IMG/VR virus record: IMGVR_UViG_3300007609_000010
Coordinates: 1 to 64,000 of that record
Strand: one strand, 5' to 3'
From: a virus
DNA: 64,000 nt
Position 1 is the first letter of the stretch. Each line of letters starts with the position of its first letter. A program made the position numbers and the translations under genes. The notes beneath the pieces were generated by a model. It was not told where the DNA came from. It saw nothing but the letters and a program-made list of their open reading frames with translations, and made no database searches. Below are positions 663 to 3,192 of this stretch, in pieces.

Positions 663-1500
663 CTTTAGCGATTACTTTTTTTAGTTTTGGATCTTTTAGA
701 ATACTTTTCTTTGTTTGTTTGATATATTTGTTAACCGGAAGTTTTTTTGGCAAAGTATCCTGTGCTTCGCCTATGTTACAGTTTGCTAAACTTAGCTTTT
801 TTAACACTGTTGGACCAAACATTGTATTCATTAATGCATTTGATAACCCTTTTACAAACCCAGTATCTTGAGACAATTTCCCTAATAGATAAGCTAGATA
901 TCCACCACTTGCTGTTCCAAGTATGGCCACTAACCAACCTAGGCCCGGAATAGTACCTAATAATCTAGAAAACAATGCTATAGATGCTGCTGTTGTTGCA
1001 GCAGTTGATAAAAATCCTACCAACAATCCTGATATTTCATCAACAAGATTTACCTGAGCAGCAATTACATACCTGTTATTAGGATTGCATCCACTAGCTT
1101 CATATGCATCACCGTATCTGTCTAATGCGTCAATTAAATCTCCAACAGAAAATATTGTAAAAAATATTTTACCTACAACCGTCTGAGCAGCAAATTTTGC
1201 AATTTGTGAACCTAAATTTTTTGCTTTATCCACGATACCGCCTTTCTTTTTTCTATCGGTATCGTCATCGTCATCGTCGGATCCAGTTTGCCCTTTTTTA
1301 TCATTATCTAAATTAGATGGACCAAGTTTAACATTTGCTTGTTTTGCAACTCGATCAGCTTGAGATCTTATTCTATATGTTCCTTCCTCAGCACCGGTAG
1401 CAGTGTTTACAACCTTCCAGCCTTTTTTAAGACCAAAAGTAGAAGGTACAACTTTAAAATTTTCAGTCACAGATAATTGAGTTATTTCAAATACTTTCAT
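643..1500 (-). CDS. Hypothetical late protein with hydrophobic helical hairpin (possible virion/membrane protein)
   Basis: The start is more likely the ATG at 1500 (MKVFEI), 5 nt downstream of TAAATA. Contains the hydrophobic segment GLLVGFLSTAATTAASIALF...IPGLGWLVAILG and an acidic D7 run. Confidence 0.6.
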   Translation of the reverse strand: MKVFEITQLSVTENFKVVPSTFGLKKGWKVVNTATGAEEGTYRIRSQADRVAKQANVKLGPSNLDNDKKGQTGSDDDDDDTDRKKKGGIVDKAKNLGSQIAKFAAQTVVGKIFFTIFSVGDLIDALDRYGDAYEASGCNPNNRYVIAAQVNLVDEISGLLVGFLSTAATTAASIALFSRLLGTIPGLGWLVAILGTASGGYLAYLLGKLSQDTGFVKGLSNALMNTMFGPTVLKKLSLANCNIGEAQDTLPKKLPVNKYIKQTKKSILKDPKLKKVIAKAKAKAS

Positions 1501-1505
1501 ATGCT

Positions 1506-1511
1506 TATTTA
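1506..1511 (-). promoter_or_regulatory. Late promoter core TAAATA (T4 gp55-type), 5 nt upstream of ATG
   Basis: Minus strand reads aaTAAATAagcatATG. The same motif recurs upstream of structural genes. Confidence 0.55.
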
Positions 1512-1518
1512 TTACAAG

Positions 1519-1603
1519 AAATGAGCTTGCGCTCATTTAGTTTTCGCTTTCGCTCAAACTATGAACTTCGTTTAATATAACAACGAGCGTTAGCGAAGTT
1601 GTT
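1519..1603. repeat. Cluster of three inverted repeats sharing a GAGC-GNNA-GC core
   Basis: 1519-1538 AAATGAGC-GCAA-GCTCATTT (minus); 1538-1561 TAGTTT-GA-GC-GAAA-GC-GA-AAACTA (minus); 1579-1603 AACAAC-GA-GC-GTTA-GC-GAA-GTTGTT (plus). Confidence 0.75.
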
Positions 1604-1604
1604 T

Positions 1605-1939
1605 AAAGTTTCATGTAGATCGTTTAGGTCAGACGGAACCTCTTTGGGTTCCATCAAAAAAAGCTTCATGTGAGTCATGCTCATGCCGAGACTTTGGAAA
1701 CAGGTATTTGGTTTATACACAACTCCCCGGGCTCTGACCTTTCCCAACCTGCGTCGACATTGCTTGCGCTACCCGTTGCCTCGTTCCAGTGCATACGGTT
1801 TTCGGGAGTGTTTGTGTTTTCGACTGCCGACAGTCAATCTATGTCAACCTACGCCCTGTGGGGTTTCGCTCAACATGTACGTGTCTGACTACATTTTCAT
1901 CAGTTTTTCCACAGCGGAATTTTATCTGGCCCGCCAACC
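1605..1939 (-). ncRNA. Putative large structured non-coding RNA directly downstream of the GIY-YIG gene
   Basis: GC-richer intergenic region with no credible ORF and about 10 complementary segment pairs. Several contain G-U pairs only on the minus strand, e.g. 1841-1848/1753-1760, 1835-1841/1616-1622, 1778-1783/1687-1692, 1770-1775/1701-1706 and 1647-1655/1632-1640. Boundaries are approximate. Confidence 0.6.
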
Positions 1940-2386
1940 TTATGTGTCGGTTGTTTTGCCTTGTTCTTGTTCTAATAAAGCCTGTCTAAGTTTTTCTGAT
2001 CCGCCTACCCTGACATTGATAATGCCATTGTAATAATCGTCGCTTTCTAATACTCGACGATCAAACTGCTCTCTTGCCTCAATGTAGGACATTTCTGCCC
2101 TGCTTTTACATAGATATAGAATTTCTCGTGTGAACTTGTCCTCGCCTAGTGCTTCAACATCTGCCTGTAGTCTATCTGAACTACCCCAATAGGTTTTCCA
2201 GTCTGACTCTTTGTATCCACGCCTGCGATTCTTTTTGCCTTTGAGAGGAGGTTTGCTTGTTTTGAACTTGGCTAGTTTTTTGCCTATGTATTTGCGCCCG
2301 TTGGTAGTATTGGTTATCAAGTAGACGAAACCTTCGTATTCATCGGATAGTTCGTCCACGGGTTCACCTTGATAAGTCCATTGCAT
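1940..2386 (-). CDS. Small GIY-YIG family nuclease (catalytic domain only)
   Basis: GFVYLITNTTNGRKYIGKK motif, YWGSS, conserved E (YIEAREQ) and YYN. 148 aa, with a basic insertion KFKTSKPPLKGKKNRRR. Confidence 0.8.
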   Translation of the reverse strand: MQWTYQGEPVDELSDEYEGFVYLITNTTNGRKYIGKKLAKFKTSKPPLKGKKNRRRGYKESDWKTYWGSSDRLQADVEALGEDKFTREILYLCKSRAEMSYIEAREQFDRRVLESDDYYNGIINVRVGGSEKLRQALLEQEQGKTTDT

Positions 2387-2436
2387 GAACTTATATAACG
2401 TCGCGGCCTTGGTATCAGTCTGCCTTCTGACTTAGA

Positions 2437-3192
2437 TCAACAATCGAAATAAACTGCTCTAAGCTGTATGGGATTGTCCCCGCTAGCATACCCTGCTATG
2501 CGTGTGCTACAATCGCCTTGTATGCCTTTCAGTAATGCTCTTTCCAGCATTGCTTGCCTATAAGTTAGATCGTGATTGGCTGTTTTTGCAATCGTGCCTG
2601 CTTCTGTGCCTTTTAGAGTTTGTAATGCAATAATGCCTTGTCCTACAGCTGGAGTGCAATGATGTACAGGAAGTCTAATCCAACCTCTGTCTATACCCAG
2701 TGTTTGCAATCCTGCTTCTGCTAATACTATAGCATCATATTCTCCGTTGTCTAGTTTTTCTAAACGTGTGTCAATATTTCCTCTAATAGGTTTGATTTCA
2801 ACATTTAGATTTGAATAAAACTTTGATAACTGTGCAGTTCTTCTTGGACTGCTGGTGCCTAACCGAAATCCGTCAAAGATATTGCCAACTACTACATCGT
2901 ATGGACTGTTTCTTTCTAATACCGCAGATATTTCCAAGTCAGGGTGTTCTACATCACCTGGCATGTCCTTTAAACTATGCACAGCAATATCTACTTGGCC
3001 ATTTAACAGTGCAGTTTCGATAGCATTACAGAAAACACCTTTTCCTCCTATTTCGTGAATAGGAGTGTCGGCATTGATATCACCGTCTGTTTTTATAATC
3101 ACAATCTCAGTGTCGCAATCTAGTTTACTGCACACAAGGTCAGCATAAGCCAATGCAAGTTTACTGCCTCTAACACCTATACGCACAGTCAT
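2437..3192 (-). CDS. hemC: Porphobilinogen deaminase (hydroxymethylbilane synthase), auxiliary metabolic gene
   Basis: Motifs RIGVRGSKLA, GGKGVF, AVHSLKDMP, GTSSPRR, IRGNIDTRL and cofactor Cys in GDCSTRIAG. The C-terminal domain is shortened (251 aa). Confidence 0.93.
   Translation of the reverse strand: MTVRIGVRGSKLALAYADLVCSKLDCDTEIVIIKTDGDINADTPIHEIGGKGVFCNAIETALLNGQVDIAVHSLKDMPGDVEHPDLEISAVLERNSPYDVVVGNIFDGFRLGTSSPRRTAQLSKFYSNLNVEIKPIRGNIDTRLEKLDNGEYDAIVLAEAGLQTLGIDRGWIRLPVHHCTPAVGQGIIALQTLKGTEAGTIAKTANHDLTYRQAMLERALLKGIQGDCSTRIAGYASGDNPIQLRAVYFDC

What the first reader, a model, noticed from the sequence alone, without database searches (positions are those of the whole stretch)
1605..2397. 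Minimal GIY-YIG nuclease immediately followed by a large, apparently pseudoknotted non-coding RNA
Seen: in an otherwise gap-free genome, ~340 nt starting right at the GIY-YIG stop codon are non-coding, GC-richer and full of complementary segments. As minus-strand RNA (plus-strand coordinates): GUUGACAU 1848-1841 / AUGUCGAC 1760-1753; UAGAUUG 1841-1835 / CGAUCUA 1622-1616; AGGUCAGA 1740-1733 / UCUGACCU 1633-1626; GAUGGAACC 1655-1647 / GGUUCCGUC 1640-1632; CGAGGC 1783-1778 / GUCUCG 1692-1687; UGGAA 1788-1784 / UUCCA 1699-1695; CGGGUA 1775-1770 / UACCUG 1706-1701; ACACAA..CUCCC 1817-1804 / GGGAGUUGUGU 1727-1717; CAUGUUGAG 1877-1869 / CUCACAUG 1674-1667; and a GACUG-UCGG-CAGUC hairpin at 1835-1822. 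At least five helices have G-U pairs that would be A-C mismatches on the other strand, which points to RNA on the same strand as the nuclease. Several helices cross, implying pseudoknots. The 148-aa nuclease lacks the C-terminal DNA-recognition domains typical of GIY-YIG homing endonucleases and has a K/R-rich insertion. Inference: this may be a nuclease-RNA ribonucleoprotein (RNA-guided or RNA-scaffolded, loosely analogous to OMEGA/HEARO systems), or a structured primer/packaging RNA co-transcribed with the nuclease. I could not match it by eye to tmRNA, RNase P or group I/II introns. Short helices can arise by chance, so covariation is the decisive test.
Basis: partly seen in the sequence, partly recalled or inferred. 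Interest (0 to 1): 0.85.

Follow-up and report, generated by a model that had tools for sequence, protein, structure and literature searches.

The report
Twin-box knotted RNA behind phage nuclease
The gene-free stretch after a small DNA-cutting enzyme gene of this uncultured marine T4-like phage encodes a real, knotted RNA of about 375 bases that is in no catalogue and carries one 7-letter word twice, but nothing shows that it guides the enzyme, and its job is unknown.

Summary
Window 1575-1950 (minus strand) encodes a real structured RNA. It starts in the last codons of a 148-aa SegE-type GIY-YIG gene (1940-2386).

- **Structure:** on 40 related loci, a 48-pair structure is 96.7% paired against 89.3% in shuffles (0/500). 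18 pairs change on both sides. A long-range helix that crosses another helix has 132 compensated cells (0/300), so the RNA is pseudoknotted.
- **Strand:** G-U pairs outnumber A-C 244 to 30, which places the RNA on the nuclease's strand.
of ten, three hold, three never vary, one is only compatible, one holds in part, and two fail outright, with a third broken in most relatives.
- **Catalogues:** no Rfam family matches, and three paper searches found no description.
- **Twin boxes:** two 7-nt boxes 55 nt apart are identical in 120/122 relatives and change together (p about 0.008). No complementary partner was found.
- **Nuclease-RNA complex idea:** poorly supported. The RNA occurs without the nuclease (5 loci). 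The nuclease family occurs in 463 cultured-phage records, and none of the 4 I examined has room for the RNA.

The likeliest reading is an independent phage RNA gene beside a small nuclease gene. This scan has already noted the same "twin-box" RNA on other genomes.

The parts
1940..2386 (-). 148-aa SegE-type GIY-YIG nuclease gene (nuclease domain only)
   Evidence: Pfam PF19835 E 1.5e-35, profile 1-123/123; phrog_447 E 1.5e-38 over a 148-position profile; 24 relatives are 66-83% identical, with the GIY/YIG tyrosines, Arg, Glu and Asn columns invariant
1575..1950 (-). Twin-box RNA, approximate full extent; the 5' end overlaps the last codons of the nuclease gene
   Evidence: Block-wise conservation in 87 loci and in alignments; the 5' conserved block also stands in loci without the nuclease; ends were not mapped
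1913..1935 (-). Helix Ha (1935-1931 with 1917-1913)
   Evidence: 99% paired in A1; invariant in that set because of how it was chosen; compensated variants seen by eye in other loci
1885..1903 (-). Hairpin HB (1903-1899 with 1889-1885)
   Evidence: All 5 pairs change on both sides (8-13 of 40 sequences each); 83.5% paired
1841..1876 (-). Helix PS0 (1876-1870 with 1847-1841), enclosing a variable hairpin
   Evidence: 98.1% paired; 12-16 of 40 sequences compensated at three pairs
1822..1839 (-). Hairpin H4 (1839-1835 with 1826-1822)
   Evidence: 98% paired; 3 of 5 pairs change on both sides
1804..1817 (-). 5' strand of long-range pseudoknot helix H5
   Evidence: Pairs with 1727-1717; inner 4 pairs 98% paired, 132 compensated cells, 0/300 shuffles, 17-43% when slid
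1717..1727 (-). 3' strand of pseudoknot helix H5
   Evidence: As above; H5 crosses helix Hb, so this is a pseudoknot
1773..1798 (-). Hairpin Hx (1798-1795 with 1776-1773) with a conserved 11-12-nt loop holding GGAACGA
   Evidence: 100% paired in 123-125 sequences; 112 compensated cells; 0/300 shuffles
1762..1769 (-). Variable hairpin Hv: a mini GNRA hairpin here, up to about 100 nt in relatives
   Evidence: Length variation and compensated stems in alignments
1729..1760 (-). Nearly invariant core block
   Evidence: Conserved columns; its 17-nt word was found in more than 118 viral contigs
1747..1752 (-). 5' strand of helix Hb (pairs with 1705-1700)
   Evidence: 99.2% paired; second pair UA 116 / GC 6 / CG 3; 0/300 shuffles
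1700..1705 (-). 3' strand of helix Hb
   Evidence: As above
1733..1739 (-). 5' strand of candidate helix H9 (with 1633-1627)
   Evidence: 100% complementary but never varies, so it is untested; a matching pairing exists in the type-4 core (by eye)
1632..1655 (-). Hairpin H10 (1655-1647 with 1640-1632)
   Evidence: 98.7-99.1% paired; terminal pair CG 116 / UA 9; many G-U changes; replaced by an unrelated hairpin at the same place in the type-4 core
1664..1674 (-). Box 1 (7-nt variable word with a constant 5' handle)
   Evidence: 12-nt direct repeat with box 2, 92% identical, spacing 55; changes together with box 2
1609..1619 (-). Box 2 (the same 7-nt word)
   Evidence: Identical to box 1 in 120/122 sequences; 0/2000 shuffles; 21 changes of class on the tree for each box; independent pairs go the same way about 7.9, the opposite way 0
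1579..1603 (-). 3' hairpin after box 2 (probable end of the RNA)
   Evidence: Hairpins with different sequence stand at this place in relatives, seen by eye; not counted
1519..1557 (-). GNRA-loop hairpins downstream, one of them terminator-like
   Evidence: Terminator-like site at 1519-1538; conserved block in relatives

Best explanation
Window 1575-1950 is an independent gene for a large structured non-coding RNA that I call the twin-box RNA. It is about 375 nt long and has at least one covariation-proven pseudoknot.

The RNA belongs to a clade of uncultured marine T4-like phages. There it lies in the fixed order gp46, small basic protein, (hemC), GIY-YIG, RNA. It is probably transcribed together with the upstream gene and ends at the hairpins near 1579-1520.

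The small GIY-YIG protein is a widespread stand-alone phage nuclease. It is a neighbour of the RNA, not its obligate partner.

I infer that the RNA's nearly invariant core forms a compact fold that presents two copies of one 7-nt word. I also infer that both copies are read by the same partner supplied in trans. This partner could be a protein acting on two equal sites, or a nucleic acid with the complementary word. That would explain why a change in one box is kept only with the same change in the other.

Shown: the fold, the strand, the pseudoknot, the linked change of the boxes, and the separability of RNA and nuclease. Inferred: co-transcription, the trans reader, and any function.
For: - **Fold:** 96.7% paired against 89.3% in shuffles, 18 pairs and 156 cells changed on both sides, 0/500 shuffles; slid controls 28-44%. 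RNAalifold finds 17 compensated pairs.
- **Pseudoknot:** H5 98% paired with 132 compensated cells; Hb 99.2%.
- **Strand:** 244 G-U against 30 A-C cells.
- **Boxes:** identical in 120/122 sequences; 36 of 37 variant rows change in both boxes; sign test p about 0.008; 0/2000 shuffles. The same logic holds in a different 'type-4' core.
- **Independence:** the RNA stands without the nuclease in 5 loci. The nuclease family is in 463 phage records, and in 4 of 4 examined only 0-148 nt follow the gene. The RNA type changes 29 times on the nuclease tree, against 49 for shuffled labels.
- **Fixed synteny:** 78/80 gp46 relatives carry the nuclease. Of 53 loci with enough sequence beyond it, 44 have this core and 9 have the type-4 core.
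Against: - No transcript data exist: no RNA run holds the stretch, so expression, ends and processing are unknown.
- The adjacency is very tight. The RNA starts inside the nuclease's last codons, and 163/175 loci are linked. That would also fit a functional pair.
- The nuclease has no DNA-binding domain of its own.
- The trans reader is a pure inference, because no partner was found.
- The local structure around box 1 is unresolved: 56% paired in MAFFT columns, and the MFE fold gives another pairing.
- Several strands have two possible partners (1847-1841; 1633-1627). This hints at conformational switching, which this reading does not explain.
Confidence: 0.5

Rival explanations
1. Nuclease-RNA particle. 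The RNA binds the domain-poor GIY-YIG protein and supplies what the protein lacks. It could act as a scaffold, an inhibitor or decoy, or a specificity module whose twin boxes recognise a target.
For: - Adjacency and same strand in 163/175 motif loci and 78/80 gp46 relatives.
- The RNA begins in the nuclease's last codons.
- The protein is the nuclease domain only.
- The boxes are the only fast-changing words in an otherwise invariant core.
Against: - Each occurs without the other.
- Nucleases equally similar to the window's (77-79% identical) sit in front of a quite different type-4 core, and the RNA type changes 29 times on the nuclease tree.
- A 7-nt word is too short to specify a target.
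- Its complement is not enriched in the window: 12 found against 16.7 expected.
Confidence: 0.15
2. Self-processing ribozyme. The invariant core is an active site and the two identical boxes are its two substrate sites. Cutting at both would release the roughly 55-nt piece between them, or join the flanks.
For: - Core conservation at the level of ribozymes or rRNA, with blocks of more than 30 invariant nt.
- Multiple pseudoknots.
- Two sites of equal sequence are what one active site, or one endonuclease, would need.
Against: - No match to any ribozyme family in Rfam.
- The topology does not fit group I: there is no J8/7, and P7-like and P8-like strands abut.
- The piece between the boxes holds strands of the conserved core, so excision would break the fold.
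- No forms lacking that piece occur among 158 loci.
Confidence: 0.1
3. A cis-acting 3' untranslated element of the nuclease mRNA. It would stabilise or process the message, or switch between alternative pairings to control expression of the nuclease or the next gene.
For: - The RNA follows the stop codon directly, with no sigma-70-like promoter on the minus strand between them.
- Two strands have alternative partners of similar sequence.
- Hairpins close the unit.
Against: - The element is more conserved than the gene it would serve.
- It occurs behind unrelated small ORFs.
- Homologous nuclease genes do without it.
- About 375 nt with pseudoknots is far more than known mRNA stabilisers need (general knowledge).
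Confidence: 0.1
4. The RNA gene is the homing site of a selfish free-standing endonuclease, as with T4 SegB among the tRNA genes. On this reading the nuclease sits there only because the invariant RNA gene is a safe, conserved target.
For: - SegE-type family assignment.
- Invariant blocks next to the gene.
- Contig ends pile up in the RNA, which shows that many co-occurring strains share these blocks.
- Placement of free-standing endonucleases beside conserved genes is established for T4 seg and mob genes (recalled).
Against: - The nuclease is nearly fixed (78/80) instead of sporadic.
- No close relative with the RNA but an empty site was found in the gp46 sample.
- The family is common in cultured phages at other places.
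Confidence: 0.15

Closest known systems
Large 'ornate' bacterial and phage RNAs of unknown function (GOLLD, ROOL, raiA, OLE)
   Same: Several hundred nucleotides long, multi-helix with pseudoknots, strongly conserved core, often carried by phages, function unknown (general knowledge; abstract of 10.1101/2024.12.08.627333 seen in the listing).
   Different: No sequence or structure match to any of them in Rfam 15. It is smaller than GOLLD and ROOL. It has twin boxes that change together, and it has a fixed place behind a GIY-YIG gene in marine T4-like phages.
Polynucleobacter-1 RNA motif (Rfam RF01718; Weinberg et al. 2010, PMC2864571)
   Same: Earlier notes of this scan say that freshwater members of the twin-box family carry this orphan motif as their first third. 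I saw only the table row in the paper, which gives 'Burkholderiales, fresh water/estuary'.
   Different: Not reproduced here. RF01718 gives no match at E <= 10 in the window's 82-kb record, nor in five relatives' records. It gives no match at E <= 1 in two genomes that hold the RNA.
T4 SegB, a free-standing GIY-YIG endonuclease in the phage tRNA and stable-RNA gene cluster
   Same: A Seg-type GIY-YIG gene lies beside conserved RNA genes in a T4-like phage (recalled, not from a call).
   Different: Here the nuclease is nearly fixed, has no DNA-binding domain, and its family mostly occurs elsewhere without any RNA. Cleavage of the RNA gene is untested.
OMEGA systems (IscB or TnpB with omega-RNA / HEARO)
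   Same: A nuclease gene with a large structured RNA encoded next to it on the same strand (abstract of PMC13565253 seen in the listing).
   Different: The nuclease fold differs (GIY-YIG, not RuvC/HNH). There is no transposon, no long guide at an RNA end, and co-occurrence is not obligate.
Group I introns carrying GIY-YIG genes (T4 td with I-TevI)
   Same: A GIY-YIG ORF plus a roughly 300-nt pseudoknotted RNA on one strand in a T4-like phage.
   Different: No interrupted host gene: hemC is full length for its phage family in 45 of 45 relatives. There is no RF00028 match. The helix order does not fit P3-P9.

Membership tests
Group I intron | Interrupts a gene whose exons join to an intact product | tested here: not met
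   hemC upstream ends at 245-250 aa in 45/45 full-length phage relatives, as it does here at 251 aa. Upstream and downstream genes differ between loci.
Group I intron | Match to the family covariance model (RF00028) | tested here: not met
   No match at E <= 10 in 1400-2600.
Group I intron | P3/P7 pseudoknot with P4-P6 between, and P8 plus J8/7 before the P7 3' strand | tested here: not met
   A P3-like helix exists (H5). However, the crossing helices (Hb, H9) have no P8 between them or abut the hairpin without a joining strand.
Polynucleobacter-1 motif (RF01718) | Score at or above the gathering score (37 bits) of the Rfam model | tested here: not met
   No match at E <= 10 in the window's record or in 5 relatives' records. 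No match at E <= 1 in 2 genomes holding the RNA.
GOLLD / ROOL / HEARO / tmRNA / RNase P | Match to the Rfam models; for tmRNA and tRNA, also ARAGORN | tested here: not met
   No family at gathering score in 64 kb. None of these at E <= 10 in 1400-2600. ARAGORN finds 0 genes.
RNA-guided nuclease systems (OMEGA-like) | Nuclease and RNA always occur together | tested here: not met
   The RNA stands without the nuclease in 5 loci. The nuclease stands without room for the RNA in 4/4 cultured phages examined.
RNA-guided nuclease systems (OMEGA-like) | A variable guide segment complementary to a target | tested here: inconclusive
   The only variable words are the 7-nt twin boxes. No complement was found nearby or enriched in the window. 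Targets in hosts or other phages could not be searched.
GIY-YIG nuclease, SegE type (for the protein) | Match to the family profile over its full length | tested here: met
   PF19835 E 1.5e-35, 122.6 bits (cut-off 25), profile 1-123/123.
GIY-YIG nuclease, SegE type (for the protein) | Conserved GIY and YIG tyrosines and the Arg, Glu and Asn of the active site | tested here: met
   Y22, Y33-G35, R55/R56, E103 and N120 are invariant in 24 sequences. Assigning these columns to catalytic roles is recalled from I-TevI, not tested.
Modular homing endonuclease (I-TevI / Seg) | A C-terminal DNA-binding domain joined by a linker | tested here: not met
   148 aa, of which 3-123 are the nuclease domain, and no other Pfam domain. 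The family profile phrog_447 is 148 positions long.

The most novel reading that the evidence does not exclude
The twin-box RNA is a new class of catalytic or programmable RNA. On this reading its two identical, co-changing 7-nt boxes are either two substrate sites of its own active site, or paired recognition words. The words would set the specificity of an enzyme (the neighbouring GIY-YIG nuclease or another) on both strands of a symmetric target.
Probability: 0.08. Interest if true: 0.9.

Novelty: new variant of a known kind. Interest (0 to 1): 0.62.

Why it matters
Large, intricately folded non-coding RNAs are rare, and each class solved so far has shown new biochemistry. This one stands in hundreds of uncultured marine T4-like phage contigs, has a core as invariant as a ribozyme's, and is in no RNA catalogue.

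Two separated words that mutate in step as direct copies, not as complements, are an unusual signature. It points to a single unknown reader. That gives a concrete handle for experiments: change one box, both boxes, or look for what binds them.

This report also corrects an attractive but weak idea. The neighbouring nuclease is a common stand-alone phage protein, mislabelled 'NAD synthetase' in many records, and nothing shows that it is RNA-guided.

Tried and rejected
- **Intron in hemC:** rejected. The Pfam C-terminal domain of hemC is cut short, but all phage relatives end at the same place.
- **Known RNA families:** Rfam at gathering score on 64 kb and at E <= 10 on 1400-2600 gave only chance-level hits (E 3-5). 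The same holds for the type-4 core and for 10 relatives.
- **tRNA and tmRNA:** none found.
- **Folding energy:** no signal on either strand.
- **Complement in the window:** not enriched.
- **Stem around box 1:** seen by eye. It was not confirmed on MAFFT columns (56% paired) or by MFE folding.
- **Nuclease-free close relatives, to define a cassette:** hemC-based loci without the nuclease come from unrelated phages. The gp46-based sample has none.
- **More relatives of the nuclease-free branch:** a protein scan found only the query itself. The DNA word found 5 loci and one chance hit, L253.
- **Expression:** no RNA holder is listed among 24 runs. Read laying was not used, because only DNA contigs were offered.
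- **Solved structures:** no relative by sequence or profile.
- **Polynucleobacter-1 link from earlier notes:** not reproduced.
- **Papers:** three searches listed no description of this RNA. I read only passages of PMC2864571. Its additional files, which may describe Polynucleobacter-1, were not opened because supplements are closed.
- **Rows dropped:** 3 type-3 rows were left out of the box test because box 1 was misaligned. Loci whose contig ended too early were left out of each count, as stated there. The 'other' class of 17 loci was not inspected.
Full report
**What is there**

On the minus strand the window reads gp47 (6183-5170), gp46 (5173-3401), a 69-aa basic protein (3398-3189) and a short hemC (3192-2437). 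Then come a 148-aa GIY-YIG gene (2386-1940) and about 400 nt without a convincing ORF. The next gene is listed from 1536, but it more likely starts at the ATG at 1500, because the first listed codons form a hairpin.

The window is part of an 82-kb IMG/VR virus record. The nuclease matches Pfam SegE_GIY-YIG over the whole profile (E 1.5e-35) and phrog_447 over 148 positions. The gap is GC-richer than its surroundings: 47.6% against 37.9%.

**Not an intron**

The Pfam C-terminal domain of hemC is matched only to position 38 of 74. This suggested a split gene with a group I intron carrying the nuclease ORF. It is not one. In 45 of 45 viral relatives that carry full-length hemC, the protein ends at 245-250 aa with the same last residues. 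Two further hits were small fragments. The genes before the nuclease and after the RNA differ among loci. Rfam has no group I match.

**The RNA is conserved and folded**

Blastn finds the stretch behind the nuclease gene in 87 fetched loci. Conserved blocks are broken by variable inserts. The conserved part also covers the last codons of the nuclease gene, and it stands in loci that lack the nuclease.

- **RNAalifold:** on 40 sequences less than 80% alike, it predicts 57 pairs, 17 of them with compensated changes.
- **My 48-pair structure:** 96.7% of cells pair against 89.3% in shuffles (0/500). 18 pairs and 156 cells change on both sides (0/500). Structures slid by 1-3 columns pair in 28-44% of cells.
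- **Long-range helix:** on an independent MAFFT alignment of 125 distinct cores, 1808-1805 with 1727-1724 is 98% paired with 132 compensated cells (0/300 shuffles). The hairpin 1798-1795/1776-1773 is 100% paired with 112 compensated cells.
- **Pseudoknot:** the long-range helix crosses helix 1752-1747/1705-1700 (99.2% paired; second pair UA 116, GC 6, CG 3). The RNA is therefore pseudoknotted.
- **Strand:** G-U pairs outnumber A-C 244 to 30, so the RNA is on the nuclease's strand.
- **Energy:** folding energy alone shows nothing (z -0.46 and +0.51).

- Three hold: 1817-1804/1727-1717, 1655-1647/1640-1632, and the 1835-1822 hairpin in a shifted register.
- Two never vary: 1740-1733/1633-1626 and the GGAA/UUCC core of 1788-1784/1699-1695.
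- One, 1848-1841/1760-1753, stays complementary only through wobble. It competes with 1876-1870/1847-1841, which has 12-16 compensated sequences per pair.
- One keeps 4 of 7 pairs.
- Two fail outright, and a third is broken in most relatives.

New helices are Ha, HB, PS0, Hx and Hb; their coordinates are in the parts list. At least two strands (1847-1841 and 1633-1627) have two possible partners of similar sequence. This may mean alternative folds, but I could not test it.

**The twin boxes**

The window holds a 12-nt direct repeat, 1605-1616 and 1660-1671, 92% identical, 55 nt apart. Across relatives the central 7-nt word (ACAUGAA in most) differs between lineages, yet it is the same in both copies.

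- It is identical in 120 of 122 rows. 37 rows are variant in each box, and 36 of them are variant in both.
- Each box changes class 21 times on a tree built without these columns.
- Among independent pairs on supported branches, the second box follows the first in about 7.9, opposes it in 0, and does not differ in about 1.1 (sign test, median p 0.008).
- 0 of 2000 shuffles reach the observed identity.
- The three type-3 rows left out for misalignment also match by eye.
- A quite different 'type-4' core found in 9 loci keeps two boxes with yet another shared word.

The two copies are direct, not complementary. Selection must therefore come from something that reads both. I found no such reader. 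There is no complement within -800..+450. The complement is not enriched in the window: 12 found against 16.7 expected. The local structure of box 1 is unresolved.

**Linkage with the nuclease**

- Of 175 loci holding the 17-nt core word, 163 have the nuclease gene ending within 700 nt upstream. Ten of the other 12 are cut by a contig end, and two (L163, L171) have kilobases of upstream sequence without it.
- A word specific to that branch found three more near-identical copies of L171 and one chance hit.
- In an unbiased sample, the 80 nearest relatives of gp46, 78 carry the nuclease downstream. The two others end within 520 nt.
- Of 53 loci with enough sequence beyond the nuclease, 44 have this core and 9 have the type-4 core.

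In this clade, then, the pair is fixed synteny. Outside it the nuclease family is common: 463 cultured-phage records at E <= 1e-10, mostly cyanophages, often labelled 'NAD synthetase'. In the four I opened, the next gene follows after 0, 28, 87 or 148 nt. Blastn of the window's RNA finds nothing in 50,697 phage records.

The RNA type changes 29 times on a tree of 134 distinct nucleases, against 49.1 on average for shuffled labels. RNA and protein are therefore inherited together only loosely. These results speak against an obligate nuclease-RNA particle, though they do not exclude a lineage-specific partnership.

**Comparison with known families**

- No Rfam 15 family matches the window, the type-4 core or ten relatives. 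ARAGORN finds nothing.
- In bacterial and archaeal genomes the core occurs only on three contigs of two metagenome-assembled genomes, which are probably binned phage DNA.
- Three full-text searches listed no paper on this RNA.
- Earlier notes of this scan describe the same 'twin-box' RNA on many other genomes, and several call its first third the Polynucleobacter-1 motif. I found the boxes before reading these notes.
- I could not reproduce the Polynucleobacter-1 link. RF01718 gives no match at E <= 10 in this record or in five relatives' records, and none at E <= 1 in two genomes holding the RNA. The link may hold for freshwater members that I did not fetch.

**Verdict**

The RNA is an uncatalogued, pseudoknotted, roughly 375-nt phage RNA with an unusual pair of co-changing boxes. 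The likeliest reading is an independent RNA gene beside a common small nuclease, with the boxes read by an unknown trans partner. I put this at about 0.5.

The nuclease-RNA particle, homing-site, ribozyme and 3'-UTR readings remain open at lower odds. Function is unknown, and no transcript data could be had.

Noticed in passing
loci L010-L126; equivalent to window about 1795-1805: Contig ends pile up 136-147 nt after the nuclease stop (about 15 loci). Other contigs begin 23-90 nt before the core word. The break lies inside the RNA, between invariant blocks. This is probably an assembly effect of many co-occurring strains sharing these blocks.
   Followed up: partly
L275, L276, L288, L299, L300, L303, L307, L311, L312 (about 430 nt after the nuclease stop): These loci have a second, very different RNA core ('type 4') at the same place. 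It keeps a 5' module shared with type 2, a hairpin in the H10 position and its own twin boxes. It has no Rfam match.
   Followed up: partly
window 2437-3192 (minus): The phage hemC (porphobilinogen deaminase) lacks most of the C-terminal domain. The same short form stands in 45 viral relatives. Some neighbours carry other heme-pathway genes: ferrochelatase in ACG-2014f, and a protein that looks to me like uroporphyrinogen decarboxylase in L016/L043.
   Followed up: partly
window 1500-1536 (minus): The ORF listed from 1536 starts inside a GNRA hairpin that is conserved as RNA or DNA structure in relatives. The ATG at 1500 is the more likely start of the next gene.
   Followed up: no
window 2387-2402 and the same place in about 90 loci: A conserved word (GGTAAGTA or TATATAAG) stands 5-8 nt before the nuclease start codon, without a Shine-Dalgarno-like sequence. 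It may be a phage promoter or an initiation signal.
   Followed up: no
window 1762-1769; relatives up to about 100 nt: The variable hairpin Hv carries long palindromic inserts. The same inserts recur in RNAs of different types, as if they were exchanged between lineages.
   Followed up: no
GenBank phage records: The small GIY-YIG protein family (phrog_447) is annotated 'NAD synthetase' in many cyanophage and rhizobiophage records. Given the full-length GIY-YIG match, this looks like a propagated misnomer.
   Followed up: partly
L246, L247, L248: The RNA core occurs on three contigs of two metagenome-assembled bacterial genomes (Crocinitomicaceae, Neomarinimicrobiota). These are probably phage contigs binned with bacteria.
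   Followed up: no
L171, L250-L252 (about 170-380 nt before the core word): In the nuclease-free branch, the RNA follows a small ORF that is preceded by a T4-late-promoter-like TATAAATA. That ORF has a WPxPKGW-type motif, which also appears as a C-terminal extension of the nuclease in L062 and L106.
   Followed up: no
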